DNA of 63,255 bases, the filler included. It is 5 parts of 5 records of this genome, joined end to end, with 100 filler letters (N's around TTAATTAATTAA, not from the genome) between each part and the next. Parts side by side here need not be neighbours in the genome. Positions count along the whole stretch, not along the records: positions 1 to 13,581 come from SRR20825019_2484; 4 more parts are not named here. One strand, written 5' to 3'. The notes beneath the pieces were generated by a model. The model did not search any database and was not told the DNA's origin. It was given only the letters and a program-made list of their open reading frames with translations. The translations under genes and the position numbers were made by a program. Shown here in pieces: positions 1 to 13,294 of the stretch. Numbering within the stretch: position 1 is the first letter of the stretch; every line of letters starts with the position of its first letter.

Positions 1-231
1 CGCCCCGACCGCGCCATACATGCTGACCAGCGCACATGTTGCCCAGATCAGACCGGCTTCGGGCGGCAACCCGATCAGGCTCATGATGGGGGACAGCAGG
101 TCGGATGCAAAGGCAACCGCGCCGAATTCATCGGCAATCCGCACAATGATCATGACGGGTAACATGACCTTGATCAGTGTGATGAACAAACGCTGGCTGC
201 GGTTTAGCAAATTCAGGAAATAGCGATGCAT
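1..231 (-). CDS. Nucleoside-recognition (Gate) domain membrane protein, 3' end truncated at window edge
   Basis: Manual translation from ATG 231: MHRYFLNLLNRSQRLFITLIKVMLPVMIIVRIADEFG...LSPIMSLIGLPPEAGLIWAT; hydrophobic, with the L.P.M...GLP motif; higher GC than the island that follows. Confidence 0.7.
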   Translation of the reverse strand, partial: MHRYFLNLLNRSQRLFITLIKVMLPVMIIVRIADEFGAVAFASDLLSPIMSLIGLPPEAGLIWATCALVSMYGAVGA

Positions 232-613
232 GGGGCGCGAGGTTCCGGGCTTCTTGGGTGGTACGAAGGGCATATGTGGGGCAGTCATTTAACGATGCGC
301 ATCCTCGCACAGTCGATATATTATTGTGCGGCGAAATCACGTGTTTCCGTGCAATAATAAAGCGTACTTTTATCATACCGCGCTTCGGAGTTGCAGATAT
401 TGGCCGATCTTGACCGTATCGATACCAAAATACTTGGGATATTGCAGATGTCCTTTTCCAAAGATCGTCGAAAAACTAGTAATTTACTCACCGATTTCGA
501 CGGACTCTGAACATTTTTTCGGTGATCTTTGATCATTTCTAACTGGGGCACCTCATTCCATTGTTTCTTATTTGGAACAAGTGGAAATGGTGTCTGTTCG
601 TATTCGGGCATTT

Positions 614-684
614 GATTATTCTATGATACCATAGGTAATCGGTCATTTAACTAAGGCTTGTTTTTTTATAACCATTTGGTTGTC
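614..684. promoter_or_regulatory. Inverted repeats upstream of the recombinase, candidate res subsites
   Basis: GATTATTCTATG-ATAC-CATAGGTAATC (614-640) and AACCA-TT-TGGTT (671-682) directly upstream of the serine recombinase ATG. Confidence 0.35.
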
Positions 685-692
685 GTAATAAA

Positions 693-1601
693 ATGGCGAA
701 AATTGGGTATGCAAGGGTTTCTACTCAGGAACAGTCAATAGAAGGTCAGATTGATATGTTGGTTGAAGCCGGTTGCACTAAAATTTTTCAAGAGAAGGTT
801 TCAGGTATCCGGTGGGATCGCCCAGAGCTGGACAAAGCACTTGCGGCTCTTAAGTCAGGTGATGAATTTGTCGTGTACAAGTTAGATCGGCTAGGTCGTT
901 CGGTCCTGGATTTGCTTAATTTAATTTTCAAGTTGACGGATGAGGGGAAGCACTTCGTGAGTCTCTCAGATGCAATTGATACCTCAAGCCCGCAGGGAAA
1001 GTTTACACTTCATATGCTTGGAGCTGTGGCAGAGTTCGAGAGATCGCTTATTGTACAGAGGACTCGGGTTGGTCTGGCTAAGGCTAGAAAAGCCGGTCGG
1101 ATAGGTGGAAACCCCAAACTAAAGGCTCGAGATCCGGAATCGTTGAGGTTGCTGAGTGAAAGACTAAAGATCAATTATTTTGAGAAGATCAATAAGTCGG
1201 CTCGTATTTGGCTCCCTATTGTTAGAAAGCATAGGCCATCTAAAAAATGGTCTATCGTGACCAAGATGGTCAATGTTGAACAAAAAAAACAAAATGAAGA
1301 ACTTTGGACAGAGAAACGGCTGAAGCGGGCAGTTAAGCATTTCATTAAAGAGGGAATGCTGGATGCGGCAGTTCTTGAAAGAGCCCCGAGAGAGGAGGGC
1401 GAAGGTCCGTCAGGCGCTACACTGCTTGTTGCTGGCTTGGTATCTGCAAAGCCTAATATAACGCTGTTGGAGCTAAAGAAGCATCTCGATGCGTCGTCGA
1501 TGTCACCCAAGAGAAGTCGGGACGGGTGGGCTCTCTCATCGGTCCGTCAAGAGGTGATGAAGGCACTTGATGCGGGGCTTCTCGTGAGGTGGAAAGCTTA
1601 A
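693..1601 (+). CDS. Serine recombinase (resolvase/invertase family) with long C-terminal extension
   Basis: GYARVST (catalytic Ser), VYKLDRLGRS, AEFERSLIVQRTRVGL; the C-terminal extension resembles alphaproteobacterial plasmid recombinases. Confidence 0.93.
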   Translation: MAKIGYARVSTQEQSIEGQIDMLVEAGCTKIFQEKVSGIRWDRPELDKALAALKSGDEFVVYKLDRLGRSVLDLLNLIFKLTDEGKHFVSLSDAIDTSSPQGKFTLHMLGAVAEFERSLIVQRTRVGLAKARKAGRIGGNPKLKARDPESLRLLSERLKINYFEKINKSARIWLPIVRKHRPSKKWSIVTKMVNVEQKKQNEELWTEKRLKRAVKHFIKEGMLDAAVLERAPREEGEGPSGATLLVAGLVSAKPNITLLELKKHLDASSMSPKRSRDGWALSSVRQEVMKALDAGLLVRWKA

Positions 1602-1886
1602 GGCTTTCGCCGCGTGGGGTATCAGAAGATGCGAACTTGTTAGTTAAATCAGTTAGTTAGGCTTTGTTGTGGTCGTGCAATATGACAATGCTCTGCTCCA
1701 GTGCTCAAAATGAGGGCAATTCTCTCGGAGAGGAAAATGCCAAACGTTTACAACCGATCAACTAAGCCTGCTTTTCCAGCATCGGCACACACCTCAGTTC
1801 AGGTAAGACTGAATTTGTGATTAATTAAATTAATAAAAAATACGCATTTTTTTGTTGATCCGGATTCCGGAACTTTAGTACAAGCT

Positions 1887-1947
1887 TTCTTGTGAGCTGC
1901 GGGAGCGTTTCCCTCACTTCGGTGAGAAAACCCTGCGGTCAAAGGAA
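1887..1947 (+). ncRNA. Putative structured RNA upstream of the Abi-like gene (candidate antitoxin or leader)
   Basis: Long hairpin capped by CTCAC-TTCG-GTGAG (cUUCGg tetraloop, 1913-1926); lower stem GCTGCGGG(1896-1903)/CCTGCGGT(1932-1939) needs G-U pairs, which favours the + strand; AT-rich promoter-like region with TTGATC at 1855. Confidence 0.55.
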
Positions 1948-1948
1948 T

Positions 1949-1988
1949 AGGAGCGGGTGGCCCTTGTGGTTGCGCCGCTCTTCTTTTT
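1949..1988 (+). terminator. Intrinsic terminator/attenuator between the structured RNA and the Abi gene
   Basis: GAGCGG(1951-1956)/CCGCTC(1975-1980) stem with an upper GTGGCC/GGTTGC stem, followed by TTCTTTTT. Confidence 0.75.
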
Positions 1989-2068
1989 GGGTATCCTTTA
2001 CTACATTAGCTTGCATTAAAGTTGAACTTCTGCTGACTTGTTATCGGAATTGCAACAAGGTCAGCCCC

Positions 2069-2815
2069 GTGAATTTCGAACGCCGCAGCTCAAGATACGA
2101 CATCGACAGAACCGGACAGCCTTTTCAGATTTCGGACAAACCCGACATGGTCGCATTTCTGTCCGAACCGAGATTCCGTGTATATTGTGTCGAAGCGAAG
2201 GGTGATCCCGACCTTGCATTTCGCCTGTATAGATGGAATATCGTGCTGAGCGAGAGTCTGCTAATGCCGTTTCATTTTGTTGAAGTTGGGGTCAGAAATG
2301 CCATGTCCCAACTGCTTTATGATCGCACTGGCGCCAACTGGCCAATGCTGGCACAAGACAAAAAACACTGGCCAAAAGGCCTCAATGGTAATCCGGTTCC
2401 AGCGCTGCATCACAAAGTTCAAGCTGAAATTGAGAAAACGCGCGAAAAACTCGCCAAGCGTAAACGCAGTCTGGAACGTGTCACGCCTGACTGTGTCATT
2501 TCGCAGCTGACATTCGGCTTTTGGGTCAAACTGCTCTCGAGTGATTTTAAGAAATCACTTTGGACCGGGGGAGTGCGAAAACCCGTCTTTCGTCACGCTC
2601 CAGATCATGTGGATCGTGAAGAAGCCTATGCTGCACTTGATGAGCTACGCATCATGCGCAACCGCTTGGCACACCATGAGATCATCTTTACCAAAGGACC
2701 AACCAAAGTATATGAGCGGATCGAAGAGGTTTGCGGTTGGCTTAATCCTGACATCGCACATTTAATCCGGACAACATCTGATTTCCGGAAAGTCCATGGC
2801 GGGCGCCCCACTTAA
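2069..2815 (+). CDS. Abi-like (AbiD/AbiF, Abi_2-type) HEPN RNase
   Basis: LSEPRF..Y....LY.WN..LS....EVGVRNA N-terminal motif, QLTFGFW, and HEPN RxxxxH motif RNRLAHHE. Start moved to GTG 2069 (AAGG at 2057-2060) because the ORF-track start at 1892 runs through the RNA and terminator. Confidence 0.85.
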   Translation: MNFERRSSRYDIDRTGQPFQISDKPDMVAFLSEPRFRVYCVEAKGDPDLAFRLYRWNIVLSESLLMPFHFVEVGVRNAMSQLLYDRTGANWPMLAQDKKHWPKGLNGNPVPALHHKVQAEIEKTREKLAKRKRSLERVTPDCVISQLTFGFWVKLLSSDFKKSLWTGGVRKPVFRHAPDHVDREEAYAALDELRIMRNRLAHHEIIFTKGPTKVYERIEEVCGWLNPDIAHLIRTTSDFRKVHGGRPT

Positions 2816-4014
2816 CACGCCAATTCGTCCTTCGCGAGCAGGTGAGGCAAATGCTCTTTGACCAACCTATGCGTCAACTGTTCCCCGCGCTTTGATAGCT
2901 TTTCAATCCAGACATCCGGCATGGCCGAAAAGTCTGTTGGATATCCGAACACATCTTCACGCGAGACAAAACCCTCCTCATCACATAACCCAGCTTGGTC
3001 CTTCATCCCAAGGTAAGGCATCGCGAACGCCTTAAGCTGACCTGCGGCACGTAGATCAAACAGACGCTTGGTTGCAAAATTCTGGGCTCGGTCGTGGATG
3101 GTTGTGAACGCACTGGCCATTCTTGCCAACATGAACTGGTTTGGAGAATCAAACCTAAGCCCGTAACCCGCGCGACAGCAAATAATGGTATCAATTTTCT
3201 GAGCATTGAGGCTGACACTTGGGTCTCGATCTGGCCACAGAGGCGCCAAGCCCAAGTTATCGTAGACACCACCATCCGTTAGCGTGACACGTTCTTCGCG
3301 ACGCGTACCGTCCCGTTTCTCAAATGCCAATGTTTCATCGAGCGCAGGCAACAAAAGTGGATAGGCAGCTGACGCAGCCACACCGTGCGACACTTTGAGA
3401 TTGTCATCACAAACGCGCCCCAAACGCCAAGAACCACTGTCTCTGTTTGAAAAGTAGAACGCCGAACCCGTCCTCAAGTCTGCAGCATTGGCGATAAAAA
3501 GCGGTCCATCTTTCGGCAAGTCACGAAATTTCCTGCCGCCAAAAACGTCATCGTCAAGTACGCGTCGAAGGATCGTGGTACGACTTGCATAACGTCTCAG
3601 AGGTGCGCGAACAGCGCCAAGCGCCTGAAGCCTAAGTCCGGGCAAAACCCAGGAAATCCCTCGCACGACCACGGCAAACATCATTAGAAAGATATTCACG
3701 CCCAGCAAAAGGAGCGAGCAGATGAATGCGTTTAATCCCTCTAGGCTTGTGAAGGCCTTCTTCACACTTGGCCCCACCAGACCGGCTCTCAGAAAGTCAC
3801 GCGTCTTCTTTTCAAATTGCTCGAATGACCCTTGATGAGTCGCATACAGAGCGCCGACGACACTGCCACCAGAAACTGTCGATATGACACCTACCTTCTC
3901 AAGCACACCAAGATCATGCAATGCACGTAGACATCCGAGGTGAAAAGCAATCGCGCGAGATCCTCCTCCAGACAATGCCAATCCGATCGTCTCGGGCGCT
4001 TCCTTTCTCGACAT
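2812..4014 (-). CDS. Patatin-like phospholipase with an internal transmembrane segment
   Basis: ALSGGGSRA oxyanion loop, STVSGGS nucleophile Ser, DGGVYDNLG catalytic Asp; hydrophobic insert LNAFICSLLLLGVNIFLMMFAVVV; AGGAG RBS. Confidence 0.92.
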   Translation of the reverse strand: MSRKEAPETIGLALSGGGSRAIAFHLGCLRALHDLGVLEKVGVISTVSGGSVVGALYATHQGSFEQFEKKTRDFLRAGLVGPSVKKAFTSLEGLNAFICSLLLLGVNIFLMMFAVVVRGISWVLPGLRLQALGAVRAPLRRYASRTTILRRVLDDDVFGGRKFRDLPKDGPLFIANAADLRTGSAFYFSNRDSGSWRLGRVCDDNLKVSHGVAASAAYPLLLPALDETLAFEKRDGTRREERVTLTDGGVYDNLGLAPLWPDRDPSVSLNAQKIDTIICCRAGYGLRFDSPNQFMLARMASAFTTIHDRAQNFATKRLFDLRAAGQLKAFAMPYLGMKDQAGLCDEEGFVSREDVFGYPTDFSAMPDVWIEKLSKRGEQLTHRLVKEHLPHLLAKDELAC

Positions 4015-4031
4015 AATGGTCTACAGCTCCT

Positions 4032-6302
4032 TCAGCAGGAAAATTGCTCAAGTCTGGAGGCTTCTTCTCCGACGAAGATAACGCGAATATTCTCTTCACC
4101 GACGATCAGCATCAAACAAGGAAGTCGGTCCATATCAAACAAACTGGCCAACCAATCCAGTTGCTCCATATCAAGTGCGCTGGGCGCAGTTCCCACCCCG
4201 TCAGGATGTGAGTGCCACTCGCCGACATATCTGATCTGCTTGCCTGACCGTTCGCGAACAGCATTTAGTTCAGCCTCGACACCATGCCGCCCCCGGGTGA
4301 ATCGACTTGGAGAACTCTGGCTATCCGAGGGTGCTGCAGAGGCGCCGACAATATGAATTGACTGGTGCAAGATATCGACGAGACCGGTCATATAGCCGCC
4401 AGTTTCGTTTGGCAGGTGCGCGGCACGTTGCTTCAACAAGTGGCTCTTCAGACCTTCGTCAACAGAAATGGTCCAACCGGATTGCGTCCGGAACTGCTCA
4501 ATTGGTGTAACATCAGGGATATCCACGCGCACACCACCACCTTCAGACATCGACCAAATCTTGATCACCGATACAGACTCATCAAGAGCGTGGTCCAGGC
4601 CATGCGAAATCAGGCCACTCAATGCCATAACGTTGCTTTCGGGAATCCTGCTGGTGATCGCCCGACACGCGCCAGTATATGTGTATTTTCCTGTCGGCGG
4701 CGCCATGTGATTTTTCAGTGCCCCGTCGCTTGCTACGATAGCGAGATATCTTGCTTCCAGATCACGCAAACGGATCGACCGATCACTTGGCTCAATCAGC
4801 AAGACGCCAGCAGTTCCGGCTGGGTTGAAAAACACACTGGCTCTTCTGGCTTTGCTTCGGTGATCAGATAAAAATCTGGCCGCACTCACAGACGCCGTTG
4901 CATCAATAACGATGTCTGCGAAATCCAAACACTCATCAATTTGCGTCCTCAGAGCAGGATCTTTGGTTTCGATATCCGCAACAATCGCCTTTGAGGTACA
5001 GCCTTGCAAAACACCAAACACTCTTTGCGCCGCAATATTGGCTTTGTGTTTACCAACATCGTCCCTGAGAGCGGTATGGCGCGCAAGGTTATGTGGCAAC
5101 AGAAGATCGTCATCTATAATCGAGAATTCGTATCCGCCTTGACGTGCGAGAACGTCAAGCACATGAGATCCGATGGCACCCGCGCCGACCACAACCACTT
5201 TGCGCAGTTCGCGCTCAGCTTTTCCTGACATTGTTGTCGCCAGTTCATGATCAAGCTCGAACTGTAACTCGCATGGTGCAAGGTCGACTGTTTCAAGAGC
5301 AGCTCTATTGCTTTCCTGCCGCCCAACGTTTTTCGTATAACCTACTTTGCTTCCATGCGCCTTATCTGCTGCGTAGGCTAAACCGAGATAAACAGCGATA
5401 TCCCCCGCTCGATGAGAGCCAATAAATGCCCGACGGTCGACGATCACCTCGTTCGTCGGTGATTGGATCGGAGTTTCTAATATAACAACAAATCGGCTAT
5501 TCAGTCTTTTAGCTGCTTCAGCACCACTAGCGAGCCAACTTGAGAGTTTGGCCGCAAGCGCTGTGCCCAAATCTCCGCCGGCCCGCGAAACCGTCTCAAT
5601 CAATTGGGTCAGGTTTCGTGGTGCATGGGTCATCCGCCGCATCGGCTGTTCAGGTAATCGATAGCTTACGATGCTCAATGAATTGCCATGAGAGGGCTCT
5701 GACGGAATTTCGCGCTCTTGGATCAGCCGAAAAACCGGCAAATCTGCATTGAGCGAAATTCCTACCAATTCTGTCTCTGAAACAGTCTCAAGCAACTTCC
5801 GATCAGTTATTAACGTTGCGACATTGCCGAACATGTTTGGATCAATCGGCTGCATGATGTCATGCAGCTCATTGTGCGCAGCACGCTTAAACCAGCTTAG
5901 AATCCGGCTCAGAAGTTCCGCCGGCGTCCAGGTTAGACGCGCGTCGGCCCAATGCCGATCATCAACACAAATCGCCCGAGGCAAACCTTCCGGTGTCACC
6001 AAGAGATGAGGCGTTTCAGGAAAATCGTCGCGCAGGACCCAAACAATCGGATGAGCATCTTCTTGACGAAATAAGATGGCCAATCGTTCAACGAGCCTGA
6101 ATGGGTAATGGCTTTTTTGTGGGCGGCCGGTTTCAAGGTCTATAACCACATATGTGCCATCATCATTCTGCCGCAGTTCAATCACTTGCGCAGCCTGCTC
6201 GGCATGCTTTGTGACATAGCGGATGAAAGCGCGTGCTGGATGGTTTTGAACGTCAGCTTCAGAAATCTTGGCGGCTTGGTCGAGCCAAGCGTCGAACTCC
6301 AT
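4032..6302 (-). CDS. Fused prokaryotic E2 - E1 (ThiF) - JAB protein (Cap2-Cap3-like)
   Basis: E2: FPETPHL...RAICV; E1: VVVGAGAIGS, DDDLLLPHNLARH, candidate catalytic Cys in YTGACRAIT; JAB: NETGG...YVGEWHSHP...PSALD. ATG 6302 overlaps the upstream TGA (TGATG). Confidence 0.92.
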   Translation of the reverse strand: MEFDAWLDQAAKISEADVQNHPARAFIRYVTKHAEQAAQVIELRQNDDGTYVVIDLETGRPQKSHYPFRLVERLAILFRQEDAHPIVWVLRDDFPETPHLLVTPEGLPRAICVDDRHWADARLTWTPAELLSRILSWFKRAAHNELHDIMQPIDPNMFGNVATLITDRKLLETVSETELVGISLNADLPVFRLIQEREIPSEPSHGNSLSIVSYRLPEQPMRRMTHAPRNLTQLIETVSRAGGDLGTALAAKLSSWLASGAEAAKRLNSRFVVILETPIQSPTNEVIVDRRAFIGSHRAGDIAVYLGLAYAADKAHGSKVGYTKNVGRQESNRAALETVDLAPCELQFELDHELATTMSGKAERELRKVVVVGAGAIGSHVLDVLARQGGYEFSIIDDDLLLPHNLARHTALRDDVGKHKANIAAQRVFGVLQGCTSKAIVADIETKDPALRTQIDECLDFADIVIDATASVSAARFLSDHRSKARRASVFFNPAGTAGVLLIEPSDRSIRLRDLEARYLAIVASDGALKNHMAPPTGKYTYTGACRAITSRIPESNVMALSGLISHGLDHALDESVSVIKIWSMSEGGGVRVDIPDVTPIEQFRTQSGWTISVDEGLKSHLLKQRAAHLPNETGGYMTGLVDILHQSIHIVGASAAPSDSQSSPSRFTRGRHGVEAELNAVRERSGKQIRYVGEWHSHPDGVGTAPSALDMEQLDWLASLFDMDRLPCLMLIVGEENIRVIFVGEEASRLEQFSC

Positions 6303-7432
6303 CAACCTGCCCTCGGTGTTGAGCCCCCAGCGCCAGACGAAAGCAATGACGCTGCGACGGTCATAGAAAGCCCGCGTTCTGAAATCGTCAGACTGAAAGG
6401 TTTGGGATTTGCCGATGATGGTTGCTCCATCGTGACAATAAATCTGCCATCCTTTTCGGCGCTCACAGCTCTGTGGTAGTTCGCGGCTTGCCGGTGCGGC
6501 GGCTGCACATCCGCATCTTCTTTACTACCACTCAGCGGAATCGGCTTTGAGGGCGAAACAATAAAGCTACCGTCTTCACGCTGCGTTTCATACAGCCACT
6601 TAGTCTCGTGAACCGGTTCAGTCTTGTCTTTCCCGATATCAGGACCGATCGACAGATAGGAGCAGTGATGCGGCAGCTTCAGCAGGTCCCAACGCAAGCG
6701 ATCATCATTCTTACGAGCACGTGTGATGTTGACGATATCTGACAAAGTGTTGTGCTTAACATCAGAGGCAATCAGGAACCGGCTTTCCTGACCATCAATT
6801 TTGAAAGTGGCATGCAGAACAACGGAGTCTTCGTTGCGTTCGATGACAGTGTTCTCGTCTTGACGCCACCCGAATGGGCTATGAACAAAAAATTCCACAC
6901 CTTCTGGGCCGTCACTGCTAAAGTCCGGCACCAACTTGCCGGCATCAACAATCAGGTGTTTTCGCTCTTCATAGTTGATGCCTTCGCGCTTCATCCAAGA
7001 CTTAAGGCGTTCGGGCAGAGAGAAAACGCGAACACCTGAGCCCTGACGCAATCGGTGTCGCGCTTCTTGCCGCACCAGCCGCGAGTCATCAGAAACACCT
7101 TCTTCAAGAATGGCTGCCGCGGGTACCCAGAGCTCGTCAATCTTAACCCGATCGCCGCCCTGATATTTCGCAGCTTGCTCGAGCCAGAAGAAATCCCCGA
7201 ACCCTTTGCAATGGTCCGAATCAATATGCGTGATGCACACCACGTCAAAAAAATTGCGCTTGGCGTCTTCGAGGTCTTTGCGCAACAGGGTGGGCAGATC
7301 GCAGCGTTTGTCGCCCGCTTCACCCGTTCGCATATTGGCAAAATCGATCAAAACTTTACGATCATCCGAGAGATCTATGCGGAGGGTGTCGGCGTTGCCG
7401 AGTGGGAAAAAAGTAACTTTCGCGTTTTTCAT
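6302..7432 (-). CDS. Metallo-beta-lactamase-fold hydrolase (ComEC/Rec2-like) ending in a flexible tail with terminal Gly
   Basis: FFPLGNADT, ITHIDSDH (HxDxDH), LKLPHHCS; C-terminus SSGAGGSTPRAG*. Confidence 0.88.
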   Translation of the reverse strand: MKNAKVTFFPLGNADTLRIDLSDDRKVLIDFANMRTGEAGDKRCDLPTLLRKDLEDAKRNFFDVVCITHIDSDHCKGFGDFFWLEQAAKYQGGDRVKIDELWVPAAAILEEGVSDDSRLVRQEARHRLRQGSGVRVFSLPERLKSWMKREGINYEERKHLIVDAGKLVPDFSSDGPEGVEFFVHSPFGWRQDENTVIERNEDSVVLHATFKIDGQESRFLIASDVKHNTLSDIVNITRARKNDDRLRWDLLKLPHHCSYLSIGPDIGKDKTEPVHETKWLYETQREDGSFIVSPSKPIPLSGSKEDADVQPPHRQAANYHRAVSAEKDGRFIVTMEQPSSANPKPFSLTISERGLSMTVAASLLSSGAGGSTPRAG

Positions 7433-7433
7433 G

Positions 7434-7541
7434 GTTCCTCGCTTCAGCGGCTTATCCGCTGGACAGTGTGTTGTCCGTATGTGCGAAGCAGGAACGATCC
7501 ACCTGAAGACATATCCCGGTTATCCGGTAGAGAAATTCAGG
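7434..7541 (-). promoter_or_regulatory. Structured 5' leader of the MBL operon: three-way junction covering the RBS plus an upstream hairpin
   Basis: Minus strand GTTCCT-GCTTC...GAAGC-G-AGGAAC closes hairpins GGACA/TGTCC and AGCGG/CCGCT; second domain CCTGAA...CCGG-ATAA-CCGG...TTCAGG. Confidence 0.55.
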
Positions 7542-7615
7542 AAAAGGCTACATTAAGCTATCCAATTCGCAGGTCACGGCACGGGTCATTCGATCGCGAG
7601 CCTGGGAGTTTTTGA

Positions 7616-7686
7616 TTGACCCTGACTCATTAATCAGTAAAGTAAGTATATGGATAAATAAACTTTGTCAATAAATAAACTATACT
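7616..7686. promoter_or_regulatory. Overlapping promoters for the divergent genes, with candidate WYL-regulator operator
   Basis: Perfect TTGACA on minus (7666-7671) flanked by direct repeats ATAAATAAACT (7654-7664, 7671-7681); inverted AGTATA(7645)/TATACT(7681); plus-strand TTGACC(7616)-16nt-TAAAGT. Confidence 0.55.
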
Positions 7687-7701
7687 CATATGGAGAATCT
7701 C

Positions 7702-8577
7702 ATGTCTGACATATCGAGCCGCCGCCCATGGGGCGTACAGCGTCGCCTGGAATTCATTGAGTTTCGACTATATTGGGAAGGACAAATTAACCGCGGCGAC
7801 ATCTCCGACACCTTTGGTGTATCAACACCACAGGCATCAACAGATCTGAGTGCTTATAGAGAGGTCGCACCAGAAAACTTGGTTTATGACTCTAGCCTCA
7901 AGGTTTACCGAGCGAGTGACCAGTTTGAACCGCAGTTAATAAAACCGGATGCCAATCAATACTTGTCTCAGTTGCGAACATTCAGTCGGGACAAAACATC
8001 CGATACTTGGCTAGGTGATATTCCAGACTTGGATGCGATGCCGATTCCGTTCCGCAAAGTTGAACCATCGATCCTGCGCACGGCCCTCACAGCAATTAAA
8101 GCCAAAAGATCATTAGAGATTTTTTATCATTCCATGAATGATGAATATCCGGAGCCGATGTGGCGCGCAATCAGCCCCCACGCTCTGGCATCAGATGGTC
8201 TTCGTTGGCACATCCGCGCACTTTGTCACCGTTCCCGCACATTCAAAGACTTCATTCTCTCGCGATGTAGAGATTGCAAACTGGCCGATGATGCGCTTGC
8301 TAAAGCCGACGACGATTGGCAATGGCGAGAGTTTTTGGAAGTCAAACTCATCCCCAATCCGAAGCTGTCAGCAGAGCAACAGAAAACCATCGCTATGGAT
8401 TATGAAATGCATGATGGCAAACGGGTAATGAGCATCCGAAAGGCACTATTCTACTACTTCAAAAAGCGGTTGCGCCTGGACATTGCAGAACAGGTTGATC
8501 ACCCCAAAGAAACACCAGTGATCGTCGAGAATTACGAGACATTGTTAAAAGAAGCGAAGTACCGTCAGGACGGTTAA
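7702..8577 (+). CDS. WYL-domain transcriptional regulator, CapW-like (wHTH-WYL-WCX)
   Basis: RRLEFIEFRLYWEGQINRGDISDTFGVSTPQASTDLSAY wHTH; RAISPHALASDGLRWHIRALC...FKDFILSR WYL; IAMDYEM WCX. GGAG precedes ATG 7702 (ORF track starts at 7690). Confidence 0.92.
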   Translation: MSDISSRRPWGVQRRLEFIEFRLYWEGQINRGDISDTFGVSTPQASTDLSAYREVAPENLVYDSSLKVYRASDQFEPQLIKPDANQYLSQLRTFSRDKTSDTWLGDIPDLDAMPIPFRKVEPSILRTALTAIKAKRSLEIFYHSMNDEYPEPMWRAISPHALASDGLRWHIRALCHRSRTFKDFILSRCRDCKLADDALAKADDDWQWREFLEVKLIPNPKLSAEQQKTIAMDYEMHDGKRVMSIRKALFYYFKKRLRLDIAEQVDHPKETPVIVENYETLLKEAKYRQDG

Positions 8578-8592
8578 CTTCGATACAGGACG

Positions 8593-9519
8593 TTGAACAC
8601 CATGAAGTCTGAAAAACGCCCAAGCTGGCAGCAGATCCGACAAAAATTTCCCAACAAGCTTTATCAACGCGTCTTTCCTATTTCCCCGATACTGGTAGCT
8701 CTGGAATGGTTTGCCGGACAGTATTTTTTTGTGACTGCACGGTGTTATTCATGCCGACTGTCATTTCAGGTTACTGCCGCAACACTTGCCTTGCTCGGTG
8801 CGTGGGGCATCTATCAAGAATATCAGTCTTCGCAAGAGGAACGCATTGGTCGCATGTGGCAGATTGCGACAAGCCCTGTGCCTGGAAACAGCGGCAAGAT
8901 TCCCGCGCTCGAATTTCTTCACCAACGCGGAGAACCCTTGGCTGGAATCGGTATCCCCAGATCTTGGTTAAAGGGCGTCAAGCTGGAAGGGGCGAATCTT
9001 GTGAACTCTAATTTGGCAGGTGCGAATCTTACCGAAGCCATTCTGCCCAAATCCAACTTCTACTATAGTAATCTCGAAGGAACAGATTTTCATTACGCCG
9101 TGCTGACAGATGCTGACTTTTCGAAAACGACTCTCAGGAGCACGGCTTTTGTTGGCGCTTCTTTAGGCAGAGCCGACTTTGCCGATATTTGGATCGATGG
9201 GATGTTCAATGAGGCCAATCTTACCGATGCTAATTTTAAAGACGCAAAATTTGATCGTGCGTTCTTTGATCTGTCATGTGCGAAGTCGGCAAACTTTACA
9301 AATGCCAACTTTGCGGGCTCTCAATGGATCACATTCAACGGCACGGACCTGTCCGGAGCAAATCTGACAAACAGCAAAGGCCTGTCTCAGCTTCAACTTG
9401 ATCAAGCGGGATGTGCGCACACGCCACCCAATCTGACGGGTACCGGCCTGACATGGTCCAAAGAGAAGATCTGTGATGCTGGAGAGCTGTCGGCATGTGA
9501 CAAGCTGGCCGACAATTAG
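8593..9519 (+). CDS. Pentapeptide-repeat protein with N-terminal hydrophobic segments
   Basis: Repeated A(N/D)(L/F)xx units (GANLVNSNLAGANLTEAIL..., ANLTDANFKDAKF); hydrophobic stretch LSFQVTAATLALLGAWGIY. Confidence 0.85.
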   Translation: MNTMKSEKRPSWQQIRQKFPNKLYQRVFPISPILVALEWFAGQYFFVTARCYSCRLSFQVTAATLALLGAWGIYQEYQSSQEERIGRMWQIATSPVPGNSGKIPALEFLHQRGEPLAGIGIPRSWLKGVKLEGANLVNSNLAGANLTEAILPKSNFYYSNLEGTDFHYAVLTDADFSKTTLRSTAFVGASLGRADFADIWIDGMFNEANLTDANFKDAKFDRAFFDLSCAKSANFTNANFAGSQWITFNGTDLSGANLTNSKGLSQLQLDQAGCAHTPPNLTGTGLTWSKEKICDAGELSACDKLADN

Positions 9520-9565
9520 TCATCTGCATTAGCCAATATGCAAGATTTATCCATAGGACGGCAGC

Positions 9566-10132
9566 ATGTCCCATTTTCTTGATCAACTATGTAAGTTTCT
9601 CATGCCGTTGCAATTTGCTTTCCTCAGAATTTTCACCTTCCTCATCATTGTCTCGACATCCATGCCATTGGCAGCGAAGGCTCAGGAACAAAAATGGGTC
9701 GCAGAAACATTTTCTCTCCTGAGCAACTTGATCGATGAGCAACGCATGATTCCGGTGAGCAATGAAAACGCACTCGACACTGAAATCCCGGGTGGCTTTG
9801 TGAAGCTGATTGTATCCCTTCCAGTGACTGTCCAGAACGTTGAAATTATCCCCCGACACACAAGTGTTATGTGTAGCTATCAGGCTGTTCGGGAGGGAAA
9901 TCGAATTCCCGTCACCTGTTACCGTATGCTTACACATGAGAAGTATGACTTTCGAATTTCTGCTAGGGTCTACGACCGACAGGGCGGCCTTGGCATTCCG
10001 GCCGATCGTCAGAAAAGCAACGGCGCACTTCAAGCCGATCACGCCAAAGAACTGCAGCTGGTGATTGAAAACGTCGAAGCCGTCGGAACAGTCGGCCGCC
10101 TCTGGTCGCGCACGCCGAACCACGAGAATTGA
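9566..10132 (+). CDS. Hypothetical exported protein
   Basis: Hydrophobic N-terminus ending in AKA-QEQ (signal-peptide-like); co-oriented with the previous two genes. Confidence 0.5.
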   Translation: MSHFLDQLCKFLMPLQFAFLRIFTFLIIVSTSMPLAAKAQEQKWVAETFSLLSNLIDEQRMIPVSNENALDTEIPGGFVKLIVSLPVTVQNVEIIPRHTSVMCSYQAVREGNRIPVTCYRMLTHEKYDFRISARVYDRQGGLGIPADRQKSNGALQADHAKELQLVIENVEAVGTVGRLWSRTPNHEN

Positions 10133-10252
10133 GTTACCGTCAGCTCACAATAAAACAAACTCAAGGTTAGTTGTTTTTGGGATGGGAAGAATAGTCCAGC
10201 TCATGTTCTAGTCGTGACAAACTCGTAGGCAGCACGTGCGCTTTTCTATTTC

Positions 10253-11632
10253 TTACTTTGTTTGAACTTGAGTGAGCTTAGATGCTCTACTCTCCAACGC
10301 ATCAAGATCATCTATGATCAACTGAATTTCGGCAATTTCTGCTTCTGAAACAGAATCCCATAGCTTCTGGGGCCGATCAATGAGTGACCATTTCAACGCA
10401 TGAAATCCGTTCCAAGCCAAACCCATCCAGCTCGCATAATTAGCGTTGAGCAGGTTCTGGGTCACATAAACCTTACCCGCATTCACTGCACTTGAAGTGC
10501 CATACCCGAGAGCGAGCATCGTGCGAAAGCGTGGTGACATCTTGCCAGGCATCGTATCCAGCAGCGTTTGCCCGAACATAGCATCATTTTTGGCAACCTG
10601 TTTGCCAACGTAAAGCGCACGCATAAGCGCTTCCATAATTGCCATTGGAACACTGGTGACAACGAACTGGCGAAAATCATAGCCTTTGACATACATCCAT
10701 TCTATCTGTCGGCCAAAATTTGAATCGCCCACCTGAATGCCTTCAAGCATTCGCAACAATCCCATGAAAGGTGCAGGCAGCCCCATTCCGCGGTTGCCAT
10801 TTGCCGACGGAGCATTAACATCCGAAAGCAAATGCCCAAGCATTCGACCGACCATCTGGAAGATATTTCCCTCCATTGGGCCACTTTTTCCGGGGATTGA
10901 TTTGATTTCACCATCCACAACGACCGTACAGGTCCCGCGGATCATATCGAGAACCCCGAAAATAATCCCCAATACAGGATCATGCGCCAGAGATCTCAGT
11001 CGATGATTAGTCGGATTAATAGTCTTGGGTGCGGCCCCGACCAATTGCGAAATTACAGACGCATCTGCTGAACCAATTTTGTAGATTTTGGCTAGTTCTG
11101 CACTCAGTTCTGGAGAAATCGCAGCATTGAAAGCGTTTTGAACCCACCGATTGAATATTCCGTCCACAGGGGTCTCAAAGGCAGTTGTCGGCTTTAATGG
11201 TGCTTTAACACAAAGCAGATCAAGCATCGCCGCGAACAGTCCGCATGAACATGCTATGGCATAGTCCAAAGCATCCAGATCATATTGACGGTTGAATGCC
11301 TCTATCTGACGACTAATCCGCTCTCCAACGGCACAAAGTTGTTCATCTGTCAGCAAGTCGGTGAGTTCAACGGGGCCTGCATATACTGTTTCAGCCTCGG
11401 CAAATATCTCGGAAATACTGGTTTGAATCCGAATATTTGGCTGAACCACAGTTTCGGACATCTCAATTGCCGAGATCTTCTCCCTATGTGCCGCCGTAAA
11501 ATCCGCCCCAAACCCCTCTAGAGCAAGCCGTGCGCTCTCAAGTTTGGCACCTATGGTCTGATGCCTATTTTCCAAGTTCAGCGATCTGTCTTGAAGCAGC
11601 TTTACGGCTTTGGCTTCCTTGTCACTGGCCAT
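10253..11632 (-). CDS. Hypothetical 459-aa membrane-associated protein with coiled-coil termini
   Basis: Long ORF; motifs HRLRSLAHDPVLGIIFG, GHLLSD..., GLPAPF, MYVKGYDFRQF; overlaps the upstream gene by 11 nt. Confidence 0.8.
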   Translation of the reverse strand: MASDKEAKAVKLLQDRSLNLENRHQTIGAKLESARLALEGFGADFTAAHREKISAIEMSETVVQPNIRIQTSISEIFAEAETVYAGPVELTDLLTDEQLCAVGERISRQIEAFNRQYDLDALDYAIACSCGLFAAMLDLLCVKAPLKPTTAFETPVDGIFNRWVQNAFNAAISPELSAELAKIYKIGSADASVISQLVGAAPKTINPTNHRLRSLAHDPVLGIIFGVLDMIRGTCTVVVDGEIKSIPGKSGPMEGNIFQMVGRMLGHLLSDVNAPSANGNRGMGLPAPFMGLLRMLEGIQVGDSNFGRQIEWMYVKGYDFRQFVVTSVPMAIMEALMRALYVGKQVAKNDAMFGQTLLDTMPGKMSPRFRTMLALGYGTSSAVNAGKVYVTQNLLNANYASWMGLAWNGFHALKWSLIDRPQKLWDSVSEAEIAEIQLIIDDLDALESRASKLTQVQTK

Positions 11633-12167
11633 TTGTAACGGCTTTCTCGGGGGTTGCTCCCTTGTCCGCCTTCTGCGTCAAAAGCTCAATAGCCATAGAA
11701 ATTTCTGCAATCTGCTTTTCAAAATACTCTGCATTTCCTAGCAAGGTCTTTTGAATGTCGTACAAACGCGCAATTGCTTCACGCAGGATGGCCAATCGCT
11801 TGGCTGTTCGCCTCTTCTTGGCAATTGCATAACCACCGATGCCAAGCAAGGCGATCGGTGCTGCAAGAACACCGATACCTGCGACCATTCCACCACCAAC
11901 CAAGCCACCGGCTGCGGCAAGACCCGATGTAATGCCTGAAGCCGATAGACCTGCGGTACCTAAAGCTGACAAGGCGAAGAAAGAGCCGGTTCCACCAACG
12001 CTGGCGCCAACAGCTGTTGCGACACCTTCTGTAATACCTGGATAATCTTTCTCCAAAGAGCCGAATATTTCCTTGATCTGTTGACTGGCGTCATCGCCAA
12101 GTGCTGCAACATCAATCTCAACCACTTCAGCAGGGGTTTCAGGAGAAGTATTAACAATTTCATTCAT
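11622..12167 (-). CDS. Glycine-zipper membrane protein with C-terminal coiled coil
   Basis: About 65-aa Gly/Ala-rich hydrophobic core (ALSALGTAGLSASGITSGLAAAGGLVGGGMVAGIGVLAAP) followed by KKRR and heptad helices; ATG 12167 preferred over TTG 12194. Confidence 0.8.
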   Translation of the reverse strand: MNEIVNTSPETPAEVVEIDVAALGDDASQQIKEIFGSLEKDYPGITEGVATAVGASVGGTGSFFALSALGTAGLSASGITSGLAAAGGLVGGGMVAGIGVLAAPIALLGIGGYAIAKKRRTAKRLAILREAIARLYDIQKTLLGNAEYFEKQIAEISMAIELLTQKADKGATPEKAVTNGQ

Positions 12168-12292
12168 GCTCTTTGTCTCGTCTGAGTGATGCAAAAATCT
12201 AATATGCTTGAACGCTCAACGAAAATAAAATGAAAATTGAATTTGTTTCTATACACTCAATTCTTGAGAGAGTTCACGTTGGGGGCCGACTG

Positions 12293-13294
12293 ATGAGAAA
12301 ACTTGACGAAACCGTACTAGAACTATGCGACATAGTCCTCACTTCGGACTCCGGAATAACGAGTAGGGTGGTTAGAAAACACACGGACAGCGATATTTCA
12401 CATGCAATGTTATACGTGCAGAATCACTCGCTGATTGACTCCACCGGCGACGGCGTTCACGCAAGCAACACGCAAAGAAACCTGTTCGCCGATGATTCAA
12501 GTGTATATGTCCTGCGCACACGTGCTCCACTAACCGACCTTCAAAAGCAATCTATCGTGACTTACGCGCGTACGCAGATTGGTACCAGCTACGCGAAGCT
12601 TCAGGCTGCCGCGGTTGCTCGTTTGAACCCTCTCAAACCAAGTACAACAAATTCGAGAAAACAATTCTGCTCGAGACTTGTGGCTCAAGCGTACGCTTAC
12701 GCAGGCATTGATTTGGTTGAAACCCCAGATTACTGCAGCCCTAACGACCTGAAATCCTCCCAATTATTAGAACCCGTTCCGACGGCCATTCGGACTGCAA
12801 CAGAAGCAGAAATAGCGTTTGCGAACACCTTTGACTCAACAAAACTGATGCAGGATACCTCCAATGCTTTGTTGACCAAAGCAAGGGAGAAAAGCGGCCA
12901 TATAGAAGCCATAAGTGACATTGACACACACCTCTTTCAACATCCAGCAGACGACCAGTTTATGACTGATGCCTTGAAAATCTCGGGATATTTGGGTGTC
13001 TGGCGTCATGACTATAAGGAAAACCCATGGCACTATGATCTCGATCTAATGTCAGAGATTGAGCACACTTCCGCGGTCGAGGAGTACTGCAAGAGCACAG
13101 TGAGCCAGCGTGATACAACTGATCGACTCCAGAAGAATAGAATTGGATACGTTCAATACTTCAGATCATCGAATCTTCAGTACTTCAAAGAATTAGCCGA
13201 ACTATACAAGTTACTTTCTGATCTTGACCGCAAACGCTTAACTGTAGCGCAAGCTTGGTTGTCACAGCTCCAAAATGACAAAAAAGAATCTTAA
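12293..13294 (+). CDS. Permuted papain-like NlpC/P60 amidase (YiiX/YaeF, C92) with helical C-terminal domain
   Basis: DIVLT...SDISHAMLYV (His) precedes KQFCSRLVAQAYAYAG (Cys); G-rich RBS before ATG 12293. Confidence 0.85.
   Translation: MRKLDETVLELCDIVLTSDSGITSRVVRKHTDSDISHAMLYVQNHSLIDSTGDGVHASNTQRNLFADDSSVYVLRTRAPLTDLQKQSIVTYARTQIGTSYAKLQAAAVARLNPLKPSTTNSRKQFCSRLVAQAYAYAGIDLVETPDYCSPNDLKSSQLLEPVPTAIRTATEAEIAFANTFDSTKLMQDTSNALLTKAREKSGHIEAISDIDTHLFQHPADDQFMTDALKISGYLGVWRHDYKENPWHYDLDLMSEIEHTSAVEEYCKSTVSQRDTTDRLQKNRIGYVQYFRSSNLQYFKELAELYKLLSDLDRKRLTVAQAWLSQLQNDKKES

What the first reader, a model, noticed from the sequence alone, without database searches (positions are those of the whole stretch)
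2812..8577. CBASS-like defence operon with a metallo-beta-lactamase in place of the cyclase: WYL <> MBL(-Gly) > E2-E1-JAB > membrane patatin
Seen: three tightly coupled genes (TGATG overlap; 17-nt gap with AGGAG) with intact catalytic motifs, divergent from a CapW-like WYL gene, and no nucleotidyltransferase or ubiquitin-fold gene. Known: in type II CBASS, Cap2 (E1-E2) conjugates the C-terminal Gly/Ala of the CD-NTase, Cap3 (JAB) reverses it, patatin CapV is the killing effector and CapW regulates. From memory, MBL plus E2-E1-JAB pairs were noted as the '6A' ubiquitin-like operon class and tested as '6A-MBL', so the core is not new. Inference: this version keeps a phospholipase effector with no cyclase to activate it, so the patatin must be triggered some other way: by an MBL-made nucleotide or lipid product, by MBL conjugation, or by release from it. 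That would be an undescribed signalling route.
Basis: partly seen in the sequence, partly recalled or inferred. Interest (0 to 1): 0.85.

Follow-up and report, generated by a model that had tools for sequence, protein, structure and literature searches.

The report
6A-MBL phage defence with patatin effector
This is a copy of a known bacterial anti-phage system in which a metal-dependent hydrolase is tagged onto other molecules by a ubiquitin-like enzyme, and it carries a membrane-attacking lipase as a regular but so far uncatalogued third part, which makes the way the hydrolase triggers cell killing open to direct test.

Summary
All four genes are real and intact. They are patatin 2812-4014(-), an E2-E1-JAB fusion 4032-6302/6305(-), an MBL-fold protein ending in ...PRAG 6302-7432(-), and a divergent CapW/BrxR-type WYL regulator 7690-8577(+). 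NCBIfam places the MBL and the fusion in the curated two-gene anti-phage system 6A-MBL, so the core is known.

The third gene is the new part. Among the 80 closest loci, 56 have a patatin beside the core and 17 have an unrelated ~250-aa four-helix membrane protein. No locus has both. Three have neither, and four stop at a contig end. Near-identical cores (about 90% DNA identity) carry different third genes, and the homology ends exactly at the core's edge. Full-length relatives of this patatin were found in 3 of 401 sampled genomes, each time beside a 6A-MBL core. No curated model covers any third gene.

So 6A-MBL has a swappable membrane-effector slot, like type II CBASS with the MBL in the cyclase's place. 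How the MBL, a ComEC/Pce-like phosphodiesterase with invariant metal ligands, is coupled to the effector is unresolved.

I could not read the paper that tested 6A-MBL, so novelty is provisional. This is a new variant of a known kind, of moderate to high interest.

The parts
2812..4014 (-). Patatin-like phospholipase, 400 aa; third gene of the operon and putative membrane-degrading effector
   Evidence: Pfam Patatin 72.4 bits, cut-off 27.7. GGGxR, S48GGS51 and D247GG are invariant in 24 of 24. The model has pLDDT 87, with nearest folds PlpD, plant patatin, CapE and CapV. It lies 17 nt after the fusion gene, behind AGGAG.
3628..3744 (-). Hydrophobic helix inserted in the patatin fold (residues 91-129); likely membrane anchor
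   Evidence: Kyte-Doolittle 19-residue mean up to 2.67 in the L001 orthologue, with similar segments in L010, L021, L036, L078 and L080. The model has a helix 91-123. The position is conserved and the sequence variable in A3. It is absent from the more distant patatin lineages L029, L034, L046 and L070.
4032..6305 (-). Cap2-Cap3 fusion (E2-E1-JAB), 757 aa from TTG 6305 or 756 aa from ATG 6302
   Evidence: NCBIfam NF058523 6A-MBL_cap2_3, 622.6 bits, cut-off 320. PADLOC E1-E2 1e-29 and JAB 1.2e-22. Solved Cap2 7tsq, 3e-8.
5808..6155 (-). E2-like domain (residues 51-166) with invariant Cys113
   Evidence: Pfam Prok-E2_A 5e-16. C113 is invariant in 19 of 19.
4842..5201 (-). E1 adenylation core (residues 369-488). 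The invariant crossover-loop Cys547 lies downstream of it.
   Evidence: Pfam ThiF 2.7e-18. G374xG376xxG379, R409, K421, D468 and C547 are invariant.
4095..4451 (-). JAB/JAMM peptidase domain (residues 619-737)
   Evidence: Pfam Prok-JAB 5.1e-10. E634, H698, H700, S709 and D712 are invariant. NCBIfam Cap3 model 7.7e-8, below its cut-off.
6302..7432 (-). MBL-fold metallo-hydrolase, 376 aa; the protein that is conjugated
   Evidence: NCBIfam NF058524 6A-MBL_enzyme, 408.4 bits, cut-off 220. The model has pLDDT 82. Nearest folds are the ComEC MBL domain 9ic4 (Z 22.1) and Pce 1wra (Z 20.1). Metal ligands are invariant.
6305..6355 (-). Disordered C-terminal tail of the MBL (residues 360-376) ending ..STPRAG; predicted substrate of E1 adenylation
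   Evidence: pLDDT is under 50 for 360-376. A375 and G376 are invariant in 23 of 23. 57 of 90 loci end in AG, and 15 of 90 carry 1-5 further residues after RAG.
7433..7689 (.). Divergent promoter/operator region between the MBL and WYL genes
   Evidence: It is 94% identical to the T. alkalitolerans locus over 257 bp, although the WYL proteins are only 71% identical. It holds a near-palindrome at 7625-7638 and an inverted repeat at 7583-7591/7614-7622. ATAAATAAACT occurs twice just upstream of the WYL start. Contigs from an RNA library reach 7596.
7690..8577 (+). CapW/BrxR-family WYL transcription regulator, 295 aa
   Evidence: Nearly full-length match to solved CapW (9c5g 1.3e-59; 7tb5, 7tb6) and BrxR (7t8k 6.3e-46). 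Pfam WYL. It holds the same divergent position in 8 of 80 close loci and 4 of 10 sampled loci.

Best explanation
The locus is a 6A-MBL anti-phage system in a three-gene form plus a regulator. Its logic is that of type II CBASS, with a metallo-hydrolase in the place of the nucleotide cyclase.

Shown by sequence and comparison:
(1) The MBL and the E2-E1-JAB fusion are members of the curated 6A-MBL families.
(2) The MBL is an enzyme with invariant metal ligands and a disordered tail ending in Arg-Ala-Gly. In some relatives the tail carries a short extension after the Gly.
(3) The fusion keeps every residue needed for adenylation, two thioester steps and JAMM peptidase activity.
(4) The gene next to the core is a swappable slot. 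It is filled by a patatin, by a four-helix membrane protein or by other small membrane proteins. Some loci also carry a second, tail-less ComEC/LmuA-like MBL.
(5) The WYL gene belongs to the CapW/BrxR family.

Inferred:
- CapW keeps the operon low until infection or DNA damage.
- The JAB domain trims or deconjugates the tail.
- E1 adenylates Gly376 and passes the MBL to Cys547 and then Cys113, which conjugate it to a target.
- As with conjugated CD-NTases, this primes the MBL.
- The MBL's phosphodiesterase activity then switches on the membrane-anchored patatin, most likely through a diffusible cleavage product.
- The patatin degrades membrane phospholipid and aborts the infection.

My odds: about 0.9 that it is a 6A-MBL member, about 0.85 that the patatin is a true component and effector, and about 0.35 for coupling through an MBL-made small molecule.
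For: Family membership: NF058523 at 622.6 bits against a cut-off of 320, and NF058524 at 408.4 against 220.

Conjugation tail: A375 and G376 are invariant in 23 of 23. 57 of 90 loci end in AG and 73 of 90 end in G. 15 of 90 have RAG followed by 1-5 residues, as expected of a pro-form cut by the JAB domain. The tail is disordered in the model. Second MBLs in the same loci do not end in Gly (8 of 8).

Active enzymes.

The patatin belongs to the operon. Its start overlaps the fusion's stop or lies within 43 nt of it in 24 of the 27 close loci. The three others are L004 (284-nt gap) and L017 and L025, where the ORF finder called none. In the window the gap is 17 nt behind AGGAG. A patatin is adjacent in 56 of 80 close loci, downstream in most and upstream in others such as L036, L065, L076 and L080, where the fusion is only 27-29% identical. 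Full-length relatives of this patatin occur in 3 of 401 evenly drawn genomes, and all 3 lie beside a 6A-MBL core.

Effector slot: the 4TM family is adjacent in 17 of 80 loci and never together with a patatin. It occurs in 5 of 401 genomes, 4 of them beside 6A-MBL. L032 (patatin) and L040 (4TM) share 89.8% DNA identity over 4544 bp, and the match ends at the fusion's stop. L027 and L028 share 91.5% over the core only. At least 7 patatin/4TM switches are needed on the MBL tree.

The same architecture is seen in other phyla and on plasmids. G. oxydans pGOX1 has an annotated patatin after the core. C. perfringens pCPF5603 has a 4TM gene before it (hhalign 99.3%).

Analogy: in the Cap2/Cap3 systems described in the passages I read, the tailed protein is called the signalling enzyme and the effector is a separate gene. 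This holds for CBASS, Pycsar and MBL and for Thoeris TIR operons.

Regulator.

Weak hint of expression: contigs of one marine RNA library match parts of the patatin, fusion and MBL genes and 164 nt upstream of the MBL start at 99% or more.
Against: - No result here shows a signal molecule, a conjugate, lipase activity or phage defence.
- The MBL's nearest folds are a DNA nuclease domain (ComEC), a phosphocholine esterase (Pce) and RNA nucleases. Its sequence neighbours in PADLOC are MBL effectors (LmuA, Avs1a, DRT-associated). It may therefore be a killing nuclease itself rather than a signal maker.
- The patatin and the 4TM protein share no detectable domain (hhalign probability 0.2%), so there is no common sensor module to point to.
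- The patatin hits no PADLOC model at all, including the CBASS phospholipase effector models.
- Some loci show no recognised third gene by my profiles: 3 of 76 informative close loci and 3 of 9 informative sampled loci. Most of these do hold other small membrane ORFs.
- The 80 loci are the ones most like the query. The patatin, 4TM and second-MBL profiles were built from those same loci, and the unbiased sample is small.
- The RNA-library contigs may be carried-over DNA.
Confidence: 0.6

Rival explanations
1. The MBL is itself the main effector. It would be a conjugation-primed nuclease or phosphodiesterase that destroys phage or host nucleic acid. The patatin or membrane protein would be a second, parallel killing arm, switched on by the same regulator or by damage and not by an MBL product.
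For: The nearest folds are the ComEC nuclease domain (Z 22.1) and the RNase Z, RNase J and CPSF73 nucleases. PADLOC neighbours are MBL effectors of Lamassu, AVAST and DRT systems. The curated system has two genes, and Iyer 2006 described it as usually two genes (passage). Some loci lack a recognised third gene. Tail-less MBLs pair with the same membrane proteins without any E1/E2, as in the 4TM plus MBL pair in G065.
Against: Nearly every locus still has a membrane-directed gene in the slot. Even the enterobacterial plasmid form carries a 172-aa four-segment membrane ORF behind the WYL gene. In the other Cap2/Cap3 systems the passages I read call the tailed protein a signalling enzyme rather than the killer. 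A strictly linked, mutually exclusive, cassette-swapped partner is what effectors of signalling systems look like.
Confidence: 0.25
2. Coupling is at protein or lipid level. The fusion would conjugate the MBL's Gly376 onto the effector itself, or onto membrane phosphatidylethanolamine as ATG7/ATG3 do with ATG8. That would bring the MBL and the membrane effector together and so activate one of them.
For: Cap2 is described as ATG7/ATG3/ATG10-like (passages of the Ledvina preprint). The proteins that most often fill the slot are membrane proteins or carry a hydrophobic insertion. Conjugation targets of this class are still called unknown (passage).
Against: Cores that are about 90% identical work with unrelated partners, which argues against a tailored protein interface. 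Several patatin lineages, and the second MBL, have no hydrophobic segment. No complex prediction could be run, so nothing supports binding.
Confidence: 0.1
3. The patatin is an unrelated neighbouring defence or housekeeping gene that merely sits in the same island.
For: The region is a low-GC island with a resolvase and an Abi_2-like gene. Defence genes cluster in such islands.
Against: The genes are translationally coupled or overlapping across dozens of genera. All 3 full-length patatin relatives among 401 genomes lie beside the core. The patatin is conserved in two gene orders. Replacement occurs exactly at the core boundary. By contrast, the Abi_2-like neighbour is found in only 1 of 90 loci.
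Confidence: 0.03

Closest known systems
6A-MBL anti-phage system (operon class '6a' of Iyer, Burroughs and Aravind 2006; tested in Pseudomonas aeruginosa by van den Berg et al. 2024, a paper I could not read)
   Same: An MBL-fold protein and an E2-E1-JAB triple fusion as adjacent genes. Both score far above the curated NCBIfam cut-offs.
   Different: The curated family set holds only these two proteins. No NCBIfam model matched this patatin or the four 4TM proteins, five patatins, two small membrane proteins and two second MBLs sampled from other loci. Iyer 2006 writes 'usually with two genes' and does not use the words patatin or phospholipase. Here a patatin is a tightly coupled third gene and a CapW-type regulator a fourth.
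Type II CBASS with a CapV/CapE patatin effector
   Same: A Cap2-like E1-E2 and a Cap3-like JAB. The partner protein has a flexible C-terminal tail ending in Gly. There is a separate, swappable killing effector that is often a patatin or a membrane protein, and an optional CapW regulator.
   Different: No CD-NTase is present. A ComEC/Pce-like metallo-hydrolase takes its place. Cap2 and Cap3 are fused. The patatin has a hydrophobic insertion, hits no PADLOC CBASS phospholipase model, and is no closer in fold to CapE or CapV than to PlpD or plant patatin.
Type II Pycsar and Cap2/Cap3-bearing Thoeris operons
   Same: The Cap2/Cap3 module is attached to a different signal-making enzyme that carries the C-terminal tail (passages).
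   Different: Those enzymes are known to synthesise nucleotide-derived signals. An MBL hydrolase has no known signal-making activity.
CapW / BrxR WYL-domain regulators
   Same: Nearly full-length similarity to solved CapW and BrxR. The gene is transcribed divergently from the defence operon.
   Different: It is attached to a 6A-MBL operon. It is present in only 8 of 80 close loci and 4 of 10 sampled loci. Its operator was not identified.
MBL-fold defence effectors (Lamassu LmuA, AVAST Avs1a, DRT-associated MBL) and the ComEC nuclease domain
   Same: The same branch of the MBL fold. A second MBL of this kind accompanies the core in 11 of 80 loci.
   Different: Those proteins lack the RAG tail and are not paired with an E1/E2.

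Membership tests
6A-MBL system | MBL-fold protein of the 6A-MBL_enzyme family | tested here: met
   NF058524 at 408.4 bits, cut-off 220, covering profile positions 1-346 of 346
6A-MBL system | Single protein with E2, E1 and JAB domains in that order (cap2_3) | tested here: met
   NF058523 at 622.6 bits, cut-off 320. Pfam Prok-E2_A 51-166, ThiF 369-488, Prok-JAB 619-737.
6A-MBL system | The two genes are adjacent and co-oriented | tested here: met
   One-base overlap of stop and start. The same order is seen in every locus of the 80 that holds enough DNA.
6A-MBL system | Protection against phage | not testable with these tools
   Known only from citations of van den Berg 2024. That paper is not held.
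Type II CBASS | CD-NTase cyclase | tested here: not met
   No nucleotidyltransferase family was found in the four proteins or in the ten neighbouring ORFs scanned in 1-14 kb
Type II CBASS | Cap2 (E1-E2) and Cap3 (JAB) | tested here: met
   PADLOC E1-E2 1e-29 and JAB 1.2e-22. Solved Cap2 at 3e-8. Here they are fused into one protein.
Type II CBASS | Nucleotide-activated effector such as CapV | tested here: inconclusive
   The patatin fold resembles CapE and CapV, but no more than PlpD or plant patatin. There is no PADLOC hit. Ligand binding cannot be tested here.
CapW/BrxR WYL regulators | wHTH-WYL-WCX architecture along the whole length | tested here: met
   Query residues 10-267 align to residues 6-261 of CapW 9c5g, E 1.3e-59. 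7tb6 covers residues 7-288.
CapW/BrxR WYL regulators | Binds an operator in the promoter of the defence operon and represses it | not testable with these tools
   The evidence is only a conserved 257-bp divergent intergenic region with short inverted repeats
Patatin-like phospholipases | Gly-rich oxyanion loop, nucleophile-elbow Ser and Asp-Gly-Gly dyad partner | tested here: met
   G16GGxR20, S48-G-G-S51 and D247GG are invariant in 24 of 24. Pfam scores 72.4 bits against a cut-off of 27.7. Whether Ser48 or Ser51 is the nucleophile was not settled.

The most novel reading that the evidence does not exclude
The 6A-MBL hydrolase is a signal-generating enzyme of a new chemical kind. Once primed by Cap2-like conjugation of its Gly tail, it would cut a cellular or phage phosphodiester substrate, and the cleavage product would be a second messenger. 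That messenger would activate interchangeable, unrelated membrane effectors: the patatin, the four-helix membrane protein and others. This would be a fourth messenger-making enzyme class under Cap2/Cap3 control, after CD-NTases, Pycsar cyclases and TIR domains, and the first that works by hydrolysis rather than synthesis.
Probability: 0.3. Interest if true: 0.85.

Novelty: new variant of a known kind. Interest (0 to 1): 0.6.

Why it matters
6A-MBL is catalogued as a two-gene system of unknown mechanism. If it nearly always travels with a swappable membrane effector, it has the same sensor, conjugation and effector logic as CBASS, Pycsar and Thoeris, but with a hydrolase at the centre. The question then becomes sharp and testable: what does a ComEC/Pce-like phosphodiesterase do that can switch on a lipase in one genome and an unrelated membrane protein in a 90%-identical sister locus? 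The natural cassette swaps (L032/L040, L027/L028) are ready-made experiments. The finding also suggests that annotation tools under-call the system by missing its effector. The family is widespread: 11 of 401 sampled Pseudomonadota genomes, and 265 plasmid records including 121 from Klebsiella.

Tried and rejected
It was never accepted because the queue was full, so there is no result either way.
- The paper that tested 6A-MBL (van den Berg et al. 2024) is not held, by DOI or by PubMed id. Supplements are closed. I could not see which genes the tested construct held.
- Literature searches:
  - '6A-MBL' returned 3 papers, none describing a third gene.
  - MBL + Cap2 + patatin + ubiquitin returned 0 papers.
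  - MBL + Cap2 + Cap3 + phage matched 3 papers, of which 2 were listed, both already seen.
  - lactamase + E1-like + JAB + patatin returned 1 unrelated fungal paper.
  - The 'mbl' matches in the Ledvina and Jenson texts lay inside other words.
- The earlier-findings tool was not open, and no whole genome is held for the window.
- Megablast of the locus against plasmids found nothing.
- A profile of the MBL found no solved structure by sequence.
- The first greedy ORF caller failed on 14 high-GC loci. I replaced it with hit-anchored ORFs and then with six-frame profile searches.
- A shared sensor domain between the patatin and the 4TM protein was not found.
- The 172-aa enterobacterial membrane ORF is not related to the 4TM family (probability 0.4%). 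The third gene of L099 is only doubtfully related (20%).
- The Atlas gave only 'hypothetical protein' clusters for the 4TM protein.
- The promoter and terminator scans were at chance level.
- The RNA-library contigs leave gaps and do not cover the WYL gene. I draw nothing from those gaps.


Full report
WHAT IS THERE

The stretch holds four intact genes. On the minus strand, in order of transcription:
- an MBL-fold protein, 6302-7432, 376 aa;
- an E2-E1-JAB fusion, 4032-6305 from TTG, or from the ATG at 6302;
- a patatin, 2812-4014, 400 aa.

On the plus strand, 257 bp from the MBL start, lies a WYL gene, 7690-8577, 295 aa.

The MBL stop and the fusion's ATG share one base. The fusion's stop is followed at once by AGGAG, and the patatin ATG lies 17 nt after the stop.

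WHAT THE GENES ARE

Pfam finds Patatin, Prok-E2_A + ThiF + Prok-JAB, and WYL.

NCBIfam places the fusion in NF058523, 'anti-phage 6A-MBL system cap2_3 protein' (622.6 bits, cut-off 320). It places the MBL in NF058524, 'anti-phage 6A-MBL system MBL-fold protein' (408.4 bits, cut-off 220).

The WYL protein aligns along almost its whole length to solved CapW (9c5g, E 1.3e-59; 7tb5, 7tb6) and to BrxR (7t8k).

No cyclase or ubiquitin-fold family appears in these proteins or in the ten neighbouring ORFs I scanned. Those neighbours are a resolvase, an Abi_2-like protein, a pentapeptide-repeat protein, a C92 amidase and unknowns.

The locus sits in the first 14 kb of the window, where GC is 0.44-0.53 against 0.60 beyond.

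The closest relative in the genome collection is Thalassospira alkalitolerans JCM 18968. Protein identities are MBL 93%, patatin 90%, fusion 83% and WYL 71%. The two genomes share one 6.7-kb block at 84% DNA identity, from the Abi_2-like gene to the WYL gene.

ARE THE ENZYMES ALIVE?

- MBL, in 94 aligned sequences: H69, D73, D224, H255 and H256 are present in all 94; D71 and H74 in 93; H184 in 87.
- Fusion, in 19 sequences: the E2 Cys113, the E1 Gly-rich loop, R409, K421, D468, the crossover Cys547, and the JAMM residues E634, H698, H700, S709 and D712 are all invariant.
- Patatin, in 24 sequences: GGGxR, S48-G-G-S51 and D247-G-G are invariant.
- The MBL model (pLDDT 82) ends in a disordered tail, residues 360-376.
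- Tails across 90 loci: 57 end in ..AG and 73 end in Gly. Fifteen have RAG followed by 1-5 more residues (for example PRAGC, PRAGRR, TRAGRNG, PRAGATDER), which is the look of a pro-form that a peptidase must trim. Two rows (L033, L067) gave unrelated tails and are probably frame problems.
- Second MBLs found in some loci do not end in Gly (8 of 8).

All this fits Cap2-type conjugation of the MBL through Gly376, with the JAB domain as trimming and deconjugating enzyme. The conjugation itself is inferred by analogy with CD-NTases (abstracts and passages of the Ledvina preprint and of Jenson et al.).

WHAT KIND OF MBL?

No solved structure matches by sequence.

By fold, the best matches are the ComEC beta-lactamase-like domain (9ic4: Foldseek 1.6e-13; VIA Z 22.1, 261 residues, rmsd 3.5) and the pneumococcal phosphorylcholine esterase Pce (1wra, Z 20.1). 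RNase Z, RNase J and CPSF73 follow at about Z 15. PADLOC's nearest models are MBL effectors of DRT, Lamassu (LmuA) and AVAST (Avs1a).

So it is a phosphodiesterase of the nuclease-rich branch. What it cuts is unknown.

IS THE PATATIN PART OF THE SYSTEM?

The MBL family is large: 4532 proteins at E <= 0.001 among 7846 candidates. A scan of one genome per species found 318 relatives, and the 80 most similar loci were kept.

I built profiles for the patatin, for a second recurrent neighbour (the 4TM protein) and for a second MBL from ORFs of these loci. I searched six-frame ORFs with them. A gene counted as adjacent if it was joined to the core by gaps of at most 500 bp. The result for the 80 loci:
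- patatin: 56 (7 of them also with a second MBL);
- 4TM: 17 (4 of them also with a second MBL);
- neither: 3 (L030 and L031 hold other small membrane ORFs; L068 does not);
- contig end: 4;
- patatin and 4TM together: never.

In 24 of the 27 close loci the patatin start overlaps the fusion's stop or lies within 43 nt of it. The exceptions are L004, with a 284-nt gap, and L017 and L025, where the ORF finder called none.

In L036, L065, L076 and L080 a patatin 48-53% identical to this one lies upstream of the MBL instead. There the fusion is only 27-29% identical. The linkage has therefore survived a change of gene order.

To escape the bias towards the query, I searched 401 genomes drawn evenly from the phylum.
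- The MBL family is over its cut-off in 11 of them.
- Of the 10 other than the T. alkalitolerans genome, 4 have the 4TM gene, 2 a patatin, 3 neither by my profiles, and 1 ends too soon.
- Two of the three 'neither' loci carry another small ORF with hydrophobic segments right after the fusion (L099, L096).

The reverse search is the sharper test.
- Full-length relatives of this patatin occur in 3 of the 401 genomes, and all 3 lie beside a 6A-MBL core. The other 5 hits are short motif matches.
- The 4TM family occurs in 5 of 401 genomes. Four lie beside a 6A-MBL core. One lies beside a tail-less MBL in a prophage-like region.

EFFECTOR SWAPPING

- On a FastTree of the 94 MBLs, patatin and 4TM need at least 7 switches. 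That count uses the 82 labelled rows and leaves out 7 'none' rows and 5 unlabelled rows. The tree carries long-branch warnings.
- L032 (patatin plus a second MBL) and L040 (4TM) are 89.8% identical in DNA over 4544 bp, and the match stops at the fusion's stop codon.
- L027 and L028 are 91.5% identical over the MBL and the fusion only, and they differ immediately upstream: a second MBL against a 4TM gene.
- The 4TM protein has two hydrophobic segments at each end, and no Pfam, PADLOC or NCBIfam match at the thresholds used. One relative (L115) gave only a sub-threshold DUF6773 hit, 21 bits against a cut-off of 27.
- The 4TM protein shares no domain with the patatin (hhalign probability 0.2%).

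OTHER PHYLA AND PLASMIDS

265 plasmid records hold an MBL relative: Klebsiella 121, Clostridium 31, Escherichia 25 and others.
- G. oxydans pGOX1, one of the genomes listed under '6a' by Iyer 2006, has MBL, fusion and an annotated patatin in a row, with a second MBL convergent.
- C. perfringens pCPF5603 has a 4TM-family gene just upstream of the MBL (hhalign 99.3%).
- An Acinetobacter plasmid has the 4TM gene behind the WYL gene and a second MBL after the fusion.
- The Klebsiella and E. coli plasmid form looks like two genes plus WYL. Even so, a 172-aa ORF with four hydrophobic segments follows the WYL gene. It is unrelated to the 4TM family.

WHAT IS KNOWN

[quoted passage not shown] The words patatin and phospholipase do not occur in its text.
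- 6A-MBL is cited as a validated defence from P. aeruginosa and is listed among the jumbo-phage defences (passages).
- Ye et al. [quoted passage not shown]
- A 2025 preprint reports Thoeris TIR operons with Cap2/Cap3 and a tailed TIR (passage).
- I could not read van den Berg 2024, and supplements are closed.
- No NCBIfam model matches this patatin or any of the thirteen third-gene and second-MBL proteins sampled from other loci. My four searches for a description of a third gene found none.
- That CapW represses CBASS operons until infection or DNA damage is recalled from memory. It was not read here.

HOW IT MOST LIKELY WORKS

The best-supported reading is a CBASS-like three-part logic: a regulator, a conjugation-primed enzyme and a swappable membrane effector.
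- Shown: the parts, their integrity, the tail, the linkage and the swaps.
- Inferred: that conjugation primes the MBL, and that MBL activity turns on the patatin.

Cores that are 90% identical serve unrelated effectors, so I favour a generic coupling, meaning a diffusible product, over a tailored protein contact. This is an argument from analogy, and I put it at about 0.35.

The main rival, at 0.25, is that the MBL is itself a nuclease effector and the membrane protein a parallel arm. Lipid or effector conjugation gets 0.1. Mere neighbourhood gets about 0.03.

EXPRESSION

Near-identical DNA occurs in runs of 11 studies, mostly marine metagenomes. Contigs of one marine RNA library (two runs of one sample) match parts of the patatin, fusion and MBL genes, and 164 nt upstream of the MBL start, at 99% or more. 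DNA carry-over is not excluded, so this is only a hint.

VERDICT

The core is a known system. The conserved, swappable membrane-effector slot, of which this patatin is the commonest filling, is not in the curated definitions I could test or in the texts I could read. I rate it a new variant of a known kind, interest 0.6, pending the one paper I could not see.

Noticed in passing
window 62230-63246 (-): A 338-aa ORF matches Pfam PF07289 BBL5 (Bardet-Biedl syndrome 5, a eukaryotic BBSome subunit) over the whole profile: 1-334 of 334, E 9.5e-141, 469 bits. That is unexpected in a bacterial window. The protein was not found in 41 relatives of the T. alkalitolerans genome. Same-strand neighbours are a 199-aa and a 431-aa ORF without a Pfam hit at 1e-5, and a 682-aa leucine-rich-repeat protein (58119-60167).
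   Followed up: partly
window 1-14000: This is a low-GC island (0.44-0.53 against 0.60 beyond 14 kb). It holds a serine resolvase (693-1601) and an Abi_2-like ORF (1892-2815) that converges on the patatin and overlaps it by 4 nt. The Abi_2-like gene travels with the system only in T. alkalitolerans, 1 of 90 loci, where it gives two separate HSPs and may be frameshifted.
   Followed up: partly
window 7433-7689 and L001 8744-9000: The divergent intergenic region is 94% identical between the two Thalassospira loci, while the WYL proteins are 71% identical and the block as a whole is 84% identical. This points to strong constraint on the regulatory DNA. ATAAATAAACT occurs twice next to the WYL start.
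   Followed up: partly
L115 8645-10586 (G065): A 4TM-family gene is followed by a tail-less MBL (375 aa), with no E1/E2 gene. Tail-fibre-like, KilA-N and IS1595 genes lie beside it. This may be a free-standing two-gene membrane-protein plus MBL module in a prophage.
   Followed up: partly
L120 (E. coli plasmid pAMSC6) and L118 (K. pneumoniae plasmid): The enterobacterial 6A-MBL element (two tyrosine recombinases, a 172-aa membrane ORF, WYL, MBL, fusion) sits inside a split umuC gene. It therefore looks like an integrative cassette. MBL relatives are listed on 121 Klebsiella plasmid records.
   Followed up: partly
L101 2324-7150: In this genome the fusion gene is in two pieces, with a 526-aa ORF on the other strand between them. 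This is probably an insertion that disrupts the system.
   Followed up: no
L027 15689-18995 and L028 3692-5727: Both Longimicrobiales loci carry an extra pair, a second MBL plus a patatin, a few kb from the core. The pairs are 87.6% identical to each other but sit on opposite sides of the core.
   Followed up: no
window 33536-36400 (-) and 27329-28126 (+): A 954-aa ORF has an Hsp70-like ATPase region only in residues 542-762. A RecA-like ORF covers only positions 1-192 of the 262-position RecA profile.
   Followed up: no
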